Shown: positions 21,796-25,489, counted from the first letter of the stretch. The stretch is DNA of 32,000 nucleotides from Pseudomonas aeruginosa (GCF_001457615.1 NZ_LN831024.1:3150001-3182000), one strand, 5' to 3'. Notes: generated by a model not told the origin, from the letters alone. Numbers and translations are program-made.

Positions 21796-22347
21796 TCACT
21801 CGTAACGCAGCGTGTAGGTCACGGCGCCGAGTACCGGACCGGGCGTCACGGTCGCCGCTTCGGAGACGTACTGCACCGCGTAGTCGTAGCTGGTGCTGGT
21901 GGCTCCGTTGGCGAGCACGATGTCGCCGGCGGGCACCGCCGCGCCGCCGGCCAGGTCGACCGGGTTGCCGCCGACGCTATCGAGCAATTGCAGCGCCACG
22001 CCCGTCGCGCCGCTGGCGGCGGTGTTCACCAGGTTCCCGGCGGCGCTGGGGTTGGTGGCCTGGAACAGGGTGGTGAAATGCTCGTCGGCCGTCGGCGCGA
22101 CGCAATCGGTGAGTTGCAGGGTGAAGGCGGTTTCGCCGGCGCTGCGGCCCACTGCGCCATCGAGGGCGCTCACCGGTACGCTGTCGAGGATCACCGTGGG
22201 GTCGGTGAAGCCGTTGACCGCGACCTGGCAGGTCTGGTCGGTCACTTCGCCGCTGAATGTGATAGTGTTTGCCGCCATCGCGGTTCCCGAAGCGGCAATT
22301 GCCGCAAAGGCCAATACCACTGCGCATGGGTTCGAAGTTCTGGTCAT
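21796..22347 (-). CDS. cupA1: Major fimbrial subunit (type-1-like pilin), 183 aa
   Basis: I chose the ATG at 22347, preceded by AAGGAA with 7-nt spacing. The track start at 22371 is a TTG. Signal peptide MTRTSNPCAVVLAFAAIAASGTAMA, then TITFSGEVTDQTCQV. C-terminal beta strand ends in YTLRYE. Confidence 0.92.
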   Translation of the reverse strand: MTRTSNPCAVVLAFAAIAASGTAMAANTITFSGEVTDQTCQVAVNGFTDPTVILDSVPVSALDGAVGRSAGETAFTLQLTDCVAPTADEHFTTLFQATNPSAAGNLVNTAASGATGVALQLLDSVGGNPVDLAGGAAVPAGDIVLANGATSTSYDYAVQYVSEAATVTPGPVLGAVTYTLRYE

Positions 22348-23200
22348 GCCTATGTTCCTTGTGTGAGGCAATAATCGTCCACCCGCCTTTTATTTCGGCC
22401 GGGAACGCGGTAAAGACTCGAACGAGTTCAAATCGATAATCAGTGGTGCGAACCACCGATATAAGTATCCCGTGCACAGGCGTCGAGGTGAACGCCGAAC
22501 GGCGGACTTATAAATCCGTTCGAGTGCCCGCCATTCGGGGAATTGCCTCGTTTCGCAGGGTACCGCCGCCTCTTCGTGCTATCCGTCGACATTGCAACGC
22601 TTGTATTTCCGACTATGGAACTCTGGCATCCCGGCCTCTCTTGCTTGTCTTCGCCAGTTTGGACTTATAATAAAAACCGTCATCCGTGTAATGCATGGAT
22701 GGTGCCATGCAGTTAACTTCCAAGTTGGAAGTATGCACTTCCCTGTTATTCAACGAATAATTACCGTCGACTTTTCCCGGGCAATTTCCATGTTCACCCG
22801 CAGGCGCTTCTCCTTGCGTAGCAAGCTTTTTCCGCCGCCGCTCAGAAGTCCGGTGCGCAGACGAGTGCCAATGGCGGCGTGCGCACTCTCGTTGCAAGTG
22901 GGCGCTGCGCCGATGCTGTTCGGAGAATCCGTCTTGCGACAAGTCAACAACTCGAACCACGGCTTCGCCTAGCATTGAAAAAGTTCCTGCACGACAGTTG
23001 TCGGGCCTGTTGGTCGTCGCTCTGCCAAGTGCCTGGACATATTTCCGTTATCCACTGATTCGGAGTCCAACGTCGCCGAACGTGCCGGCTGCCGCGACTC
23101 TCGAAAAAATAGCCTGGAGAAACTCCGAAACAAACATTGCACATGGACCGTCGTCGCAACGGTCTCCCTCAATAGTTATTAAAAGAAGAGGTTCGCACCC
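22348..23200. promoter_or_regulatory. 853-bp low-GC divergent control region between cupA1 and cgrA (expected target of H-NS-like MvaT/MvaU silencing)
   Basis: Three 60-nt lines counted by hand (22621, 22681, 22741) give 45-48 percent G+C, against 67 percent for a cgrA line (23401). The region is dense in palindromes. I find none of the ORFs here convincing. Confidence 0.8.
22934..22947. promoter_or_regulatory. Candidate Anr/Dnr (FNR-type) box TTGCG-ACAA-GTCAA
   Basis: 8 of 10 matches to TTGAY-N4-GTCAA, with the TTG-N8-CAA core intact. It lies 254 nt upstream of the cgrA ATG. This is a sequence match only. Confidence 0.3.
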
Positions 23201-24427
23201 ATGGCAGGCAAGCATTACCAGGATGCCGATGTGCATGCCGCAACCCTATCCCGCCTCCGACTGGTATTCCGGAACTTCGAGCGCGTCTGTGTCGCCTTCT
23301 CCGGTGGCAAGGACAGCTCGGTCACCCTGCAATTGGCGCTGGACGTGGCACGCGAGTTGGGACGCAGCCCGGTGGACGTACTGTTCATCGACCTGGAGGG
23401 GCAGTACCAGGCCACCATCGATCACGTCAGCGAGATGCTCGGGCGTCCCGACGTACGCCCCTGGTGGGTCTGCCTGCCACTCAACCTGCGCAACGCCTCT
23501 AGCCTGGAGGAACCCTACTGGTGCTGCTGGGAGCCCGGCGCCGAGGCCGACTGGGTGCGCCCGCTACCGAAGCAGCGAGGGGTGATCAGCGACCCGGCGT
23601 TCTTCCCCTTCTACCGCTACCGCATGGAGTTCGAGGAGTTCGTCGCCGGCTTCAACGCCTGGCTGGCCAGGGAAGAGCCTACCGCGTTCCTGGTCGGCAT
23701 CCGTTCGGACGAATCGCTCAATCGCTACCTGGCGGTCAAGCGCAGGAGCCGGGCGAAACAATGCGCCTGGACGCCGCCGGGCGGCTGCGCGCCGCTGGCC
23801 TGGAGCGCGCGCGACCGGGCCAACCCGCAGGCGGTGAGCTTCTTCCCGATCTACGACTGGCGTTTCGAGGATCTCTGGCGTTGCGTCGCCGACCACGGCT
23901 ACGCCTATAACCGCCTCTACGACCAGATGTACCGCGCCGGCGTGCCGTTCTCGCAGATGCGCATCTGCCAGCCCTATGGCGACGACCAGCGCAAGGGCCT
24001 CGACCTGTTCCACCGGATCGAGCCACGCACCTGGTTCAAGGTAGTCCGGCGCGTCGCCGGCGCCAACTATGGGGCGCGCTATTGTCGCCAGCGCTTCCTC
24101 GGCTACCGTGGCGGCCTTGGCCTGCCGCCCTCCTTCGGCACCTGGCGCGAGTACAGCCAGTTCCTCCTGCGCAGCATGCCGCCGCCTCTGCGCGGCATCT
24201 ACCAGCGGCGCATCGAGCGTTTCATCCTCTGGTGGAAGCAGCACGACTATCCCCTTGCCATCTGGCCGGACGCGGGGATCCCGGCCCTGGAGAATCGTCG
24301 CAAGCAGCCGTCCTGGCGGCGTATCGCGCTATCCCTGCTGAAGCAGGACATGGCCCGCTCGCTGTCCTTCGGCTTCTCCCAGGCCGATATCGACAGACTG
24401 GTCCCCGGTCGGGAGAAGCGCTCGTGA
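23201..24427 (+). CDS. cgrA: PAPS-reductase-like PP-loop ATP pyrophosphatase family protein, 408 aa
   Basis: PP-loop motif SGGKDS at aa 34-39 (nt 23300-23317) within VCVAFSGGKDSSVTLQLAL. A long C-terminal extension follows. The gene is divergent from cupA1. Confidence 0.92.
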   Translation: MAGKHYQDADVHAATLSRLRLVFRNFERVCVAFSGGKDSSVTLQLALDVARELGRSPVDVLFIDLEGQYQATIDHVSEMLGRPDVRPWWVCLPLNLRNASSLEEPYWCCWEPGAEADWVRPLPKQRGVISDPAFFPFYRYRMEFEEFVAGFNAWLAREEPTAFLVGIRSDESLNRYLAVKRRSRAKQCAWTPPGGCAPLAWSARDRANPQAVSFFPIYDWRFEDLWRCVADHGYAYNRLYDQMYRAGVPFSQMRICQPYGDDQRKGLDLFHRIEPRTWFKVVRRVAGANYGARYCRQRFLGYRGGLGLPPSFGTWREYSQFLLRSMPPPLRGIYQRRIERFILWWKQHDYPLAIWPDAGIPALENRRKQPSWRRIALSLLKQDMARSLSFGFSQADIDRLVPGREKRS

Positions 24428-24936
24428 TCCGCCCGCAAGACTGCGAGATCCTGCAGTGGCGCTCGTTCGACGACGAGGCCGCCTTCTTCGCCAGCATGGG
24501 CCGCTTCTTCGCCAGCGCCCGGGTGCGCCGCGAGTGCGGCGGCTACCCGCTGAGCGACGGTCCCTACCACCGCTGGTTCGTGCTCCGCCGCCTGGGGGAC
24601 ACGCGGATACTGGGGTTCGTCAGCCTGGAGCAACATCCCGACGTGGTTCGCCTGCGCGATGCCTACCTGCGTGCGGAAGCGCGCGGTCGCGGGCTGTTCC
24701 GCACCCTGCGCGAGCGGGTCCTCGGGCATGTCGACCAACTCGGGCTGGCCTGTACCACCCGCGCGCCCCAGGCCTGCGCGCGCCTTCTCGAACCGCACGG
24801 CTTCGCCGTGCATTCCACCCGGGGTAGCTGGGTGACGCTCATGAGGAAAGCCCATGGCACAGACAAAGACACTGACGGAGCGAGCCGAGGCGCTGTTCGG
24901 CGAACTGCACGGGTTGCCGCTTGCCGAGCGGATTGA
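24424..24936 (+). CDS. cgrB: GNAT-family acetyltransferase-like protein, 170 aa
   Basis: The GTG at 24424 overlaps the cgrA TGA (GTGA). An acetyl-CoA-loop-like RGRGLFRTLRERV is present. The frame stays open to 24936, which is 83 nt into cgrC. Confidence 0.78.
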   Translation: MIRPQDCEILQWRSFDDEAAFFASMGRFFASARVRRECGGYPLSDGPYHRWFVLRRLGDTRILGFVSLEQHPDVVRLRDAYLRAEARGRGLFRTLRERVLGHVDQLGLACTTRAPQACARLLEPHGFAVHSTRGSWVTLMRKAHGTDKDTDGASRGAVRRTARVAACRAD

Positions 24937-25489
24937 AGCCATCAACCGGATCCGCCGGCTGCTCCACGCGCACAGTCCGTTCGCCGAAGAGCCGGTCGAT
25001 TGCGTGCAGTGGGTGCGTGCCGAGCGCGTCGCCGGCAACGACTACAACCCCAATACCGTCGCGCCACCGGAGATGCGACTGCTGAGGCTGTCCATCGAGT
25101 CCGACGGATTCACCCAGCCCATCGTCGCCTATCCGCAGGCCGACGGGCGCTACGAGGTGGTCGACGGCTTTCACCGCCTGCGCGTGGGCAGCGCCAAGGG
25201 CGCGCTGCGCCAGCGTCTGCACGGCTACCTGCCGATCGCCGCGATACGCGCCGGGCGTGAAGGCGACAGCGAGCGCATCGCCGCCACCATCCGCCACAAC
25301 CGAGCACGCGGCGTGCACGGCGTATTGCCGATGACGGCGATCGTGGTGACCCTGCTCAAGGCCGGCTGGAGCGAGGCCGACGTGGCCCGCGAACTGGGCA
25401 TGGACAATGACGAGGTGCTGCGTTTCAAGCAGGTTTCCGGATTGCCCGAGCTGTTCCGCGAACACGTGTATTCCCGCTCCTGGGAGTAG
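24854..25489 (+). CDS. cgrC: ParB/Srx-domain DNA-binding protein, 211 aa
   Basis: ATG at 24854 preceded by GAGGAAAG. ParB/sulfiredoxin-fold signature YEVVDGFHRLRVG (DGFHR at nt 25163-25177). A C-terminal HTH-like segment reads LLKAGWSEADVARELGMDNDEVLRFKQ. Confidence 0.9.
   Translation: MAQTKTLTERAEALFGELHGLPLAERIEAINRIRRLLHAHSPFAEEPVDCVQWVRAERVAGNDYNPNTVAPPEMRLLRLSIESDGFTQPIVAYPQADGRYEVVDGFHRLRVGSAKGALRQRLHGYLPIAAIRAGREGDSERIAATIRHNRARGVHGVLPMTAIVVTLLKAGWSEADVARELGMDNDEVLRFKQVSGLPELFREHVYSRSWE

What the first reader, a model, noticed from the sequence alone, without database searches (positions are those of the whole stretch)
23201..25489. cgrABC triad (PP-loop ATP pyrophosphatase + GNAT + ParB/Srx protein) looks like a nucleic-acid-modifying or ParB-like spreading module, not a classical regulator
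Seen in sequence: CgrA carries a canonical PP-loop SGGKDS (23300-23317), the motif of PAPS reductase, DndC, SspD, TtcA and QueC-type enzymes that adenylate or thiolate substrates. CgrC has the ParB/sulfiredoxin-fold signature VVDGFHRLR (25163-25177) plus a C-terminal HTH. CgrB has a GNAT acetyl-CoA loop (RGRGLF). The three genes are translationally chained by a GTGA overlap and an 83-nt overlap, which implies fixed stoichiometry. Established knowledge, as I recall it: cgrABC is required for phase-variable (ON/OFF, heritable) cupA expression. CgrA and CgrC act together. The analogous PAPS-reductase-like/ParB-like pair IbrA/IbrB activates eib genes in E. coli. Canonical ParB proteins are CTP-dependent clamps that load at palindromes and spread. 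Inference: the heritable ON state could be a covalent DNA or RNA mark written by the PP-loop enzyme. Alternatively it could be a self-propagating ParB-like nucleoprotein that counteracts MvaT silencing. To my knowledge, neither the substrate of CgrA nor that of CgrB is known.
Basis: partly seen in the sequence, partly recalled or inferred. Interest (0 to 1): 0.85.

Follow-up and report, generated by a model that had tools for sequence, protein, structure and literature searches.

The report
cgrABC: known enzyme-like fimbrial gene activators
These three overlapping genes are the already described cgrABC activators of CupA fimbriae in Pseudomonas aeruginosa; their enzyme-like parts are real and strongly conserved, but how they switch a silenced gene on is still unknown, and the enzyme/ParB pair turns out to be a mobile module found from phages to archaea, often next to adhesin genes.

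Summary
cgrA (23201-24427), cgrB (24424-24936) and cgrC (24854-25489) lie where stated, with SGGKDS, RGRGLF and DGFHR at the stated coordinates, a GTGA junction and an 83-nt overlap. This is P. aeruginosa cgrABC (PA2127/PA2126.1/PA2126), so the locus is already known.

What I add:
- The conserved unit is the CgrA-CgrC pair (IbrA/IbrB, E. coli YbdN/YbdM), adjacent in 76 of 78 usable species loci. The GNAT is an optional insert (34 loci).
- CgrA is a PP-loop enzyme closer to the adenylyltransferases CysD and FAD synthase than to CysH or DndC.
- CgrC models as a ParB N-domain plus HTH (Noc, KorB, ParB) but has no C-terminal dimerisation domain. A canonical sliding clamp is therefore unlikely.
- Relatives sit beside fimbriae, autotransporters and T9SS adhesins. 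In phages and mobile elements they sit with an SNF2 helicase, which in one contig is fused to a CgrB-type GNAT.
- The PA7 lineage keeps cgrABC under purifying selection although this locus has no cupA cluster.

Best reading: a DNA-tethered, nucleotide-dependent enzyme complex that opens an MvaT-silenced region. A covalent DNA mark is neither supported nor excluded.

The parts
21796..22371 (-). cupA1, the fimbrial subunit gene and the regulated target, transcribed divergently from cgrA
   Evidence: ORF. The gene order cupA1/cgrA is named in PMC12977541.
22372..23200 (.). 829-bp AT-rich cupA1-cgrA intergenic region. It is the presumed site of MvaT silencing and of CgrC/CgrA action.
   Evidence: GC is 0.51-0.55 here against 0.64-0.73 in the flanks. 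No Rfam family, no sigma-70 consensus, no FNR/Anr-box match at up to 2 mismatches and no significant repeats. A published low-affinity HutC site lies at 22600-22615. The region is absent from the PA7 lineage.
23201..24427 (+). cgrA (PA2127): a PP-loop ATP pyrophosphatase/adenylyltransferase-like domain (residues ~14-246) plus a DUF3440 C-terminal domain
   Evidence: Pfam PAPS_reduct 8e-16 and DUF3440 1e-23. AF2 model pLDDT 78.8. Foldseek hits to FAD synthase, APS/PAPS reductases, CysD, NcsA, LarE and TtuA, over the N-terminal ~250 residues only. hhalign to CysD E 6e-9 against CysH 2.6e-5.
23300..23317 (+). PP-loop SGGKDS
   Evidence: Coordinates. Invariant in 27 diverse homologues.
23696..23716 (+). 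GIRSDES motif (R168, D170, E171 and S172 are invariant)
23960..23998 (+). RICQPYGDDQRKG motif, carrying the family's only invariant cysteine (C256), at the start of DUF3440
24424..24936 (+). cgrB (PA2126.1): a divergent GNAT with a family-specific N-terminal motif, FFAxMGRFFAS..VRRECGGYPLxD (24475-24558). The tail after ~24850 lies inside the overlap with cgrC and is unconstrained.
   Evidence: A profile search found 452 cluster representatives.
24682..24699 (+). GNAT motif-A-like loop RGRGLF (R87 invariant, G90 nearly so; the last G/A position is F)
24854..25489 (+). cgrC (PA2126): an N-terminal helical hairpin (residues 2-40), a ParB/Srx NTP-binding-fold domain (~51-153) and an HTH (~160-201), with no C-terminal dimerisation domain
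   Evidence: 52% identical to E. coli YbdM.
25163..25177 (+). DGFHR, which aligns with ParB box II GERRxRA (G and the two Arg are kept; E becomes F and R becomes H)
   Evidence: phmmer alignment to Noc. Invariant in the family.
25286..25312 (+). TIRHNRARG, on the helix that corresponds to ParB box III (ENxxR). N and R are kept and the catalytic Glu is not; the register is inferred.
   Evidence: Secondary-structure order. Invariance.
25037..25054 (+). NDYNPN, the counterpart of the ParB N-terminal 'PNPxQPR' segment
   Evidence: Alignments. Invariance.

Best explanation
cgrABC is the P. aeruginosa copy of the widespread IbrA/IbrB (YbdN/YbdM) module, carrying the optional GNAT insert. Proposed mechanism: (1) CgrC is the targeting subunit. 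Its HTH places it on the AT-rich, MvaT-silenced cupA1-cgrA intergenic DNA (association with the cupA promoter and a CgrA-CgrC complex are published; I recall this but could not read the papers). (2) CgrC brings in CgrA, a catalytically intact PP-loop enzyme of the CysD/FMN-adenylyltransferase type. I infer that the ParB/Srx nucleotide pocket of CgrC acts as the regulatory NTP switch for CgrA, much as the GTPase CysN drives CysD. (3) The tethered enzyme pair, helped by the acetyl-CoA-dependent CgrB in this clade, acts on the local nucleoprotein (the MvaT/MvaU filament, CgrC itself or RNA polymerase) rather than forming a sliding clamp, and so opens the silenced promoters. (4) Heritable ON/OFF behaviour arises because cgrABC shares the same silenced intergenic region, which gives positive feedback. 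Shown here: the folds, the motif conservation, the gene coupling and the genomic associations. Inferred: steps 2-4 and the substrate.
For: Core pair. A is followed by C on the same strand, usually with overlapping stop and start codons, in 76 of 78 usable loci out of 80 fetched, spanning many bacterial phyla and Asgard archaea. E. coli YbdN and YbdM are homologous (3e-81 and 5e-77).

Intact active sites. Invariant catalytic-type motifs occur in CgrA and CgrC. dN/dS is 0.12-0.19 for all three genes.

Enzyme type. CgrA's best matches are CysD (NCBIfam 8e-11; hhalign 6e-9 against CysH 2.6e-5) and the FAD synthase PAPS domain.

Targeting subunit. CgrC models as a ParB N-domain plus HTH and matches Noc, KorB and ParB.

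Precedents. The ParB-like protein VirB is a CTP-dependent anti-silencer of H-NS (PMC10770331, PMC10653881). ParB folds bind CTP, ATP or GTP, including a ParB-acetyltransferase fusion (PMC12704722).

Target DNA. The shared intergenic region is AT-rich.

Conserved role beside surface-protein genes: a YadA-type adhesin in Ralstonia, an autotransporter in Bradyrhizobium, fimbrial genes in P. protegens and Achromobacter, large surface proteins in Delftia, and T9SS cargo adhesins in 14 of about 21 Bacteroidota loci.

DNA/chromatin context. In about 13 loci and in phages the module is linked to an SNF2 helicase. In contig L101 an SNF2-CgrB-type GNAT fusion sits directly upstream of IbrA-IbrB.

Known role of the locus: PMC12977541, PMC12071387 and PMC7253367.
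Against: No nucleotide binding, catalysis or substrate has been shown for any Cgr protein. PNAS 2025 reports that neither sequence nor AlphaFold3 predicts ParB-fold ligand specificity. PA7-lineage strains keep cgrABC under purifying selection with no cupA cluster and no AT-rich region at this locus, so cupA anti-silencing cannot be the only function. The pair also occurs in Bacteroidota, Bacillota and archaea, which lack MvaT/H-NS. The GNAT is absent from most family members. Feedback through the shared region is inference only. No Anr box and no palindromic loading site were found. The primary papers could not be read.
Confidence: 0.4

Rival explanations
1. Epigenetic writer. CgrC targets CgrA to DNA or a nascent RNA, and CgrA adenylates and then modifies a base or the backbone. 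The mark is inherited and defines the ON state.
For: PP-loop enzymes of this fold modify nucleic acids (DndC, TtuA, NcsA and TilS appear among the fold hits). A ParB-like plus PAPS-reductase-like pairing also occurs in Dnd (DndB/DndC; PMC12839542). The module associates with SNF2 DNA translocases and, in three loci, with type IV-B CRISPR-Cas plus a CysH-like gene. It sits next to adhesin genes, which are typically phase-variable.
Against: The DndC and BrxP models score far below threshold (18 bits against a 290-bit cut-off; PADLOC 1e-5). No desulfurase, DndD/E, Ssp or restriction partners are nearby. CgrA is closer to the adenylyltransferases CysD and FAD synthase. No known DNA modification is made by this family.
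Confidence: 0.15
2. Canonical ParB-type CTP clamp. CgrC loads at a palindrome, closes around DNA, and slides or spreads to displace MvaT, as proposed for VirB.
For: The ParB N-domain plus HTH fold matches CTP-bound ParB, Noc and KorB. G105, R108 and R110 of box II are conserved, as are N and R of the box III helix. VirB provides a precedent.
Against: There is no C-terminal dimerisation domain, and the family is uniformly ~170-215 aa. The box II Glu-Arg pair and the box III Glu are replaced. No significant palindrome was found in the intergenic region. CgrC needs CgrA, an enzyme partner that clamps do not need.
Confidence: 0.08
3. Conventional activator complex. The enzyme folds are vestigial scaffolds (pseudoenzymes) and CgrA-CgrC simply recruits or stabilises RNA polymerase.
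For: The only published activities I recall are complex formation and promoter association. SbnI shows that a ParB/Srx protein can also be an ordinary regulator (fold hit).
Against: Active-site motifs are invariant across phyla, phages and archaea, and dN/dS is low. Pseudoenzymes usually lose such residues.
Confidence: 0.1
4. Small-molecule route. CgrA and CgrC together make or consume a nucleotide-derived signal (an adenylylated or phosphorylated metabolite, by analogy with CysD/CysC or with SerK/SbnI kinases), and that signal controls expression.
For: CgrA resembles CysD and FMN adenylyltransferase. ParB/Srx folds include ATP-dependent kinases (SbnI and Srx hits; PMC12704722).
Against: The conserved HTH in CgrC, and the SNF2 and HNH-like fusions of the GNAT partner, point to action on DNA-bound targets rather than free metabolites.
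Confidence: 0.1

Closest known systems
IbrA/IbrB of E. coli (activators of the eib adhesin genes) and YbdN/YbdM of E. coli K-12
   Same: The same two families in the same order with overlapping genes. YbdN is 37% and YbdM 52% identical to CgrA and CgrC. Database names for the homologues are 'IbrB-like domain-containing' and 'DUF3440 domain-containing'. ybdNM also lies in an H-NS/FNR-linked regulatory context (PMC9068703).
   Different: The E. coli pairs have no GNAT between the two genes. The ybdNM neighbours are not adhesin genes.
VirB of Shigella (a ParB-like, CTP-dependent anti-silencer of H-NS)
   Same: A ParB N-domain plus HTH protein that activates genes held silent by an H-NS-type protein on AT-rich DNA (PMC10770331, PMC10653881).
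   Different: VirB has a C-terminal dimerisation domain and works without an enzyme partner. CgrC has no such domain, has a divergent box II and box III, and depends on CgrA.
ParB, Noc and KorB CTP-dependent DNA clamps
   Same: These are the best structural matches for CgrC (7nfu, 8qa9, 7bm8, 6sdk).
   Different: CgrC has no ParA-binding motif and no C-terminal domain, and the catalytic Glu is not conserved. KorB is a repressor, not an activator.
DndB/DndC (DNA phosphorothioation) and DpdB/QueC (7-deazaguanine DNA modification)
   Same: A ParB/Srx-fold protein with a DGxHR-type motif paired with a PP-loop enzyme in a DNA-directed system (PMC12839542).
   Different: CgrA does not meet the DndC or BrxP models. 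There are no DndA/D/E, DpdA or restriction partners.
CysD-CysN, the GTP-regulated ATP sulfurylase
   Same: CysD is the closest characterised sequence relative of the CgrA catalytic domain. It is a PP-loop adenylyltransferase driven by a partner NTPase.
   Different: CgrA's partner is a ParB-fold DNA-binding protein rather than a translational-type GTPase. CgrA also has an extra DUF3440 domain, and its acceptor substrate is unknown.
SbnI of Staphylococcus (a ParB/Srx serine kinase that also regulates the sbn operon)
   Same: A ParB/Srx fold that combines ATP-dependent chemistry with gene regulation (5uje and 6nr6 hits).
   Different: SbnI has a different domain layout and no PP-loop partner.

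Membership tests
IbrA/IbrB (YbdN/YbdM) two-gene module | The first gene encodes PAPS_reduct + DUF3440 | tested here: met
   Pfam 8e-16 and 1e-23, both above the curated cut-offs.
IbrA/IbrB (YbdN/YbdM) two-gene module | A ~200-aa ParB_N + HTH protein is encoded immediately downstream on the same strand | tested here: met
   76 of 78 usable loci. Fold. With CgrB inserted, the gap between A and C is about 426 nt.
IbrA/IbrB (YbdN/YbdM) two-gene module | Sequence homology to E. coli YbdN and YbdM | tested here: met
   3e-81 and 5e-77.
IbrA/IbrB (YbdN/YbdM) two-gene module | Activates neighbouring adhesin genes | not testable with these tools
   Literature only. Adjacency to adhesin genes in other genera is supportive.
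ParB-CTPase DNA clamps (ParB/Noc/KorB/VirB) | ParB N-terminal NTP-binding fold plus a central HTH | tested here: met
   Foldseek E 9e-8 to 1e-5 over ~155-165 columns.
ParB-CTPase DNA clamps (ParB/Noc/KorB/VirB) | Box II GERRxRA and box III ENxxR | tested here: inconclusive
   DGFHRLR keeps G, R and R but not the E-R pair. RHNRAR keeps N and R but has no Glu. The register comes from helix order only.
ParB-CTPase DNA clamps (ParB/Noc/KorB/VirB) | A C-terminal dimerisation domain that closes the clamp | tested here: not met
   CgrC ends at residue 211, about 10 residues after the last HTH helix. Family lengths are about 170-215 aa.
ParB-CTPase DNA clamps (ParB/Noc/KorB/VirB) | CTP binding and hydrolysis, and loading at a palindromic site | not testable with these tools
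   Only chance-level repeats were found in 22372-23200. Ligand specificity cannot be predicted (PMC12704722).
Dnd/Ssp DNA phosphorothioation | A DndC/SspD-type sulfurtransferase | tested here: not met
   TIGR03183 scores 18.1 bits against a 290.4-bit cut-off. PADLOC DndC scores only 1e-5.
Dnd/Ssp DNA phosphorothioation | Partner genes nearby (DndA/D/E or SspA/B/C, plus restriction genes) | tested here: not met
   The neighbours are cupA genes, an aldehyde dehydrogenase and a GMC oxidoreductase.
PP-loop ATP pyrophosphatases (PAPS-reductase-like) | An SGGxDS loop and the adenine-nucleotide alpha-hydrolase fold | tested here: met
PAPS/APS reductase (CysH) proper | The C-terminal catalytic Cys (ECGLH) and equivalog-level similarity | tested here: not met
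   NF002537 scores 22 bits against a 154-bit cut-off. hhalign gives only 75% probability. No ECGLH-like motif is present in the sequence.
GNAT acetyltransferases (CgrB) | Match to GNAT profiles | tested here: met
   The single sequence scores 20.3 against 20.7 bits. 21 of 30 family members match PF00583, the best at 3.8e-7. The best PDB profile hit is GNAT 3gy9.
GNAT acetyltransferases (CgrB) | Motif A, Q/R-x-x-G-x-G/A | tested here: inconclusive
   RGRGLF: R87 is invariant and G90 is conserved in at least 90% of sequences, but the final G/A position is F.

The most novel reading that the evidence does not exclude
CgrA-CgrC, with CgrB and, in mobile relatives, an SNF2 remodeller, is a bacterial 'chromatin-modifying' machine. 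A DNA-targeting ParB/HTH subunit tethers an adenylyl-transferring PP-loop enzyme and an acetyltransferase. These covalently modify either the DNA or the silencing nucleoid protein at a chosen locus, creating a heritable open state. This would be a new class of epigenetic phase switch, shared by adhesin loci from Proteobacteria to Bacteroidota and by phages.
Probability: 0.15. Interest if true: 0.85.

Novelty: already known. Interest (0 to 1): 0.45.

Why it matters
The biochemical role of the IbrA/IbrB-CgrA/CgrC family has been open since the genes were described. The family is large: each of my two searches scored 8,000 candidates, and more than 7,900 passed E <= 0.001. It is present in 223 phage records. 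It sits next to adhesin and virulence-related surface genes in several pathogens. If the conserved active sites act on DNA or on H-NS/MvaT-type silencers, this would be a new way to make heritable ON/OFF decisions and to escape xenogeneic silencing. Recent work on VirB, KorB and the ParB fold makes the decisive experiments routine. If the proteins are only scaffolds, the locus is an ordinary local activator.

Tried and rejected
- The two primary papers (10.1128/JB.05904-11 and 10.1128/JB.01344-07; PMC3209204, PMC2168922; PMID 21926232) are not held. Statements about ChIP and the CgrA-CgrC complex therefore rest on my memory and on citing papers.
- Literature searches for IbrA/IbrB, DUF3440, ybdN/ybdM and CgrA found no mechanistic study.
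- Intergenic region: an Anr/FNR box (TTGATN4ATCAA, up to 2 mismatches) gave no hit. A sigma-70 scan found none. Rfam found none.
- Repeats in the intergenic region (10-14 nt) are at chance level: I estimate about 0.3 exact 10-mers expected in 829 bp.
- Apparent long 'fusions' P0122, P0210 and P0211 are frameshift artefacts.
- PADLOC gave no defence-system assignment.
- A near-identity plasmid search found only Ralstonia megaplasmid homologues.
- A profile search of the CgrC family against PDB sequences did not extend the alignment to box III.
Full report
**Identity and observation.** The window carries the Pseudomonas aeruginosa cupA/cgr locus. CgrC and CgrA are 100% identical to clusters of P. 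aeruginosa proteins. The genes are named PA2126 cgrC, PA2126.1 cgrB and PA2127 cgrA in PMC7253367.
- cgrA is 23201-24427.
- cgrB is GTG 24424-24936, joined to cgrA by a GTGA junction.
- cgrC is 24854-25489, overlapping cgrB by 83 nt.
- SGGKDS is at 23300-23317 and RGRGLF at 24682-24699.
- DGFHR is at 25163-25177; the longer VVDGFHRLR spans 25157-25183.

**Domain assignments.** CgrA matches PAPS_reduct and DUF3440 above Pfam's cut-offs. CgrC and CgrB are sub-threshold as single sequences, but other evidence supports both. The CgrC AlphaFold2 model (pLDDT 82.9) matches Noc, KorB and ParB across the N-domain and the HTH. For CgrB, 21 of 30 relatives hit GNAT profiles. All three genes are under purifying selection against their PA7 orthologues (dN/dS 0.12-0.19). 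The CgrB tail inside the overlap is unconstrained (dN/dS 5.6).

**The conserved unit is a pair, not a triad.** A scan of one genome per species returned 80 loci from Proteobacteria, Bacteroidota, Bacillota, Desulfobacterota, Acidobacteriota, Planctomycetota and Asgard archaea.
- In 76 of the 78 loci with a usable CgrA homologue, a CgrC homologue follows directly on the same strand, usually with overlapping stop and start codons. The two exceptions run off contig ends.
- A CgrB-type GNAT lies between the two genes in only 34 loci.
- On a neighbour-joining tree of CgrA, the GNAT-containing loci fall in at least four separate clades, and some close relatives lack it.
- E. coli K-12 YbdN and YbdM are clear homologues with no GNAT.

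So cgrABC is an IbrA/IbrB-type pair with a facultative third gene.

**What the proteins look like.**
- CgrA. Invariant residues across 27 diverse homologues include SGGKDS, D64/E66, GIRxDES, PIYDW and RICQPYGDDQRKG, which carries the only invariant cysteine, plus a tryptophan-rich DUF3440 domain. Its fold matches adenine-nucleotide alpha-hydrolases over the first ~250 residues only; DUF3440 has no structural match. By sequence it is nearest to CysD (NCBIfam 8e-11; hhalign 6e-9 against 2.6e-5 for CysH) and to the FAD synthase PAPS domain. Both are adenylyltransferases. It is far from DndC (18 bits against a 290-bit cut-off).
- CgrC. It has an N-terminal helical hairpin, a ParB/Srx domain and an HTH. 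The motifs NDYNPN, DGFHR, TIRHNRARG and LGMDxDEVLRxKQ are conserved across 77 sequences. It ends just after the HTH, and the whole family is ~170-215 aa. The C-terminal dimerisation domain of clamp-forming ParB proteins is therefore missing.
- CgrB. It is a small divergent GNAT with a family-specific invariant N-terminal motif. The family has 452 cluster representatives at E <= 0.001 among 1.84 billion.

**Genomic associations.** In Proteobacteria the module often sits beside surface-protein genes:
- cupA fimbriae in this window;
- a YadA-type trimeric autotransporter immediately upstream in Ralstonia;
- a classical autotransporter immediately upstream in Bradyrhizobium;
- a fimbrial gene in P. 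protegens;
- a chaperone-usher cluster in Achromobacter;
- large surface proteins in Delftia.

That is 6 of 13 contexts examined. Three others are prophage-, plasmid- or integrase-linked. In Bacteroidota, 14 of about 21 loci are flanked by T9SS cargo giants (BspA-type LRR, Big_12, FG-GAP, PKD, CHU_C/Por_Secre_tail), PorP/SprF and a LytTR regulator.

A second recurrent context, in about 13 loci of diverse phyla and in phages, is hypothetical protein - SNF2 helicase - IbrA - (GNAT) - IbrB. In Clostridium and Streptococcus phages this cassette lies between the lysis genes and the integrase or cro region. CgrA and CgrC match phage families phrog_2302 and phrog_2159 strongly. SNF2-linked versions branch at the base of the proteobacterial ABC clade. 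In contig L101 a single protein fuses the SNF2 helicase to a CgrB-type GNAT directly upstream of IbrA-IbrB. That fusion ties the GNAT functionally to the module and to DNA-translocating machinery.

**Mechanism.** The data favour a DNA-tethered, nucleotide-dependent enzyme complex over either a plain activator or a canonical clamp. CgrC supplies targeting through its HTH and a ParB/Srx nucleotide pocket. CgrA supplies ATP-dependent adenylyl-transfer chemistry. CgrB supplies an optional acetyl-transfer activity.

The target region is an 829-bp AT-rich island (GC 0.51-0.55 against ~0.68) shared by the divergent cupA1 and cgrA promoters. That arrangement would give positive feedback, and hence bistability, if the complex relieves MvaT silencing. 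This last step is inference. VirB shows that a ParB-like protein can counter H-NS silencing using CTP. The 2025 survey of the ParB fold shows ATP, GTP or CTP binding that cannot be predicted from sequence, and includes a ParB-acetyltransferase fusion. It does not mention the IbrB, PAPS-reductase or YbdM families.

**Limits and counter-evidence.**
- No activity has been demonstrated for any of the three proteins.
- In the PA7/P. paraeruginosa lineage cgrABC is intact at the syntenic site, but the cupA cluster and the AT-rich region are absent there. Homology upstream of cgrA stops about 60 nt before the start codon. The module must therefore have another role or target.
- The family also occurs in organisms without MvaT or H-NS.
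- A covalent DNA or RNA mark remains possible. It is unsupported by partner genes or by similarity to known DNA-modifying PP-loop enzymes.

**Verdict.** The locus is already known. Interest is moderate because an old open question is now readily testable, and the comparative results (pair as core, adhesin linkage, SNF2-GNAT fusion, PA7 retention) narrow the hypotheses.

Noticed in passing
L089-L091 (P. aeruginosa-group/PA7, CP000744.1 3284538-3301170) and L001, compared with window 22372-25489: The PA7/P. paraeruginosa lineage keeps intact cgrABC (~87% aa identity, dN/dS 0.12-0.19) at the syntenic site. There is no cupA cluster there and no AT-rich intergenic region. Homology upstream of cgrA ends about 60 nt before the ATG.
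   Followed up: partly
L038 1435-6505, L056 and L077: In Thermoanaerobacter, Pirellulales and Heimdallarchaeota contigs the IbrA-IbrB pair directly adjoins a type IV-B-like CRISPR-Cas set: Csf1 4e-8, Csf2 3e-15, Csf3 6e-13 and a short CysH-like PP-loop protein. The type IV papers I searched do not mention this neighbour.
   Followed up: partly
L101 3340-6955; also L024, L025, L028, L061, L062, L064 and L081 (Clostridium phage phiCs5676-1): There is a recurrent mobile cassette: hypothetical ~390-aa Zn-ribbon protein - SNF2 helicase - IbrA - (GNAT) - IbrB - small protein. In L101 the SNF2 helicase and a CgrB-type GNAT are one 599-aa protein (P0314).
   Followed up: partly
L058, L059, L066, L067, L070-L072, L074-L076, L078 and L080: In Bacteroidota the pair is flanked by T9SS-secreted giant surface proteins (BspA LRR, Big_12, FG-GAP, CHU_C/Por_Secre_tail), PorP/SprF and a LytTR regulator. 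This extends the adhesin linkage beyond Proteobacteria.
   Followed up: partly
window 23145-23167: An inverted repeat GGACCGT-N9-ACGGTCC (predicted hairpin -12 kcal/mol) lies 35-55 nt upstream of the cgrA start. It sits within the only upstream stretch that aligns with PA7, where it is only partly retained. It could be an operator or a 5'-UTR hairpin.
   Followed up: no
window 22445-22454 and 23190-23199: Perfect 10-nt inverted repeats (GGTGCGAACC / GGTTCGCACC) bracket the intergenic region. One abuts the cgrA start codon and the other lies ~75 nt upstream of cupA1. By my estimate this is about chance level (~0.3 expected), but the placement is notable.
   Followed up: no
window 22600-22615: The published low-affinity HutC site (TAGTCGGAAATACAAG, PMC12977541) maps inside the cupA1-cgrA intergenic region, on the minus strand.
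   Followed up: no
window 24850-24936; L085, L088 and L093: The C-terminal ~28 residues of CgrB are an unconstrained read-through of the cgrC 5' region. Gene callers often omit cgrB altogether in relatives, so the GNAT is under-annotated in databases.
   Followed up: partly
P0317 (560 aa): A CgrB-type GNAT is fused to multiple Zn-ribbons, an HNH-like segment (weak NinG and GmrSD_C hits) and an HTH. This is another DNA-linked architecture for this GNAT family.
   Followed up: no
window 23471, 23522 and 23966 (CgrA C91, C108, C256): CgrA has three conserved cysteines: one invariant and two conserved in at least 90% of sequences. They could form a three-Cys Fe-S site like that of TtuA/NcsA, which would fit the anaerobic induction. 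Their spatial proximity could not be checked.
   Followed up: no
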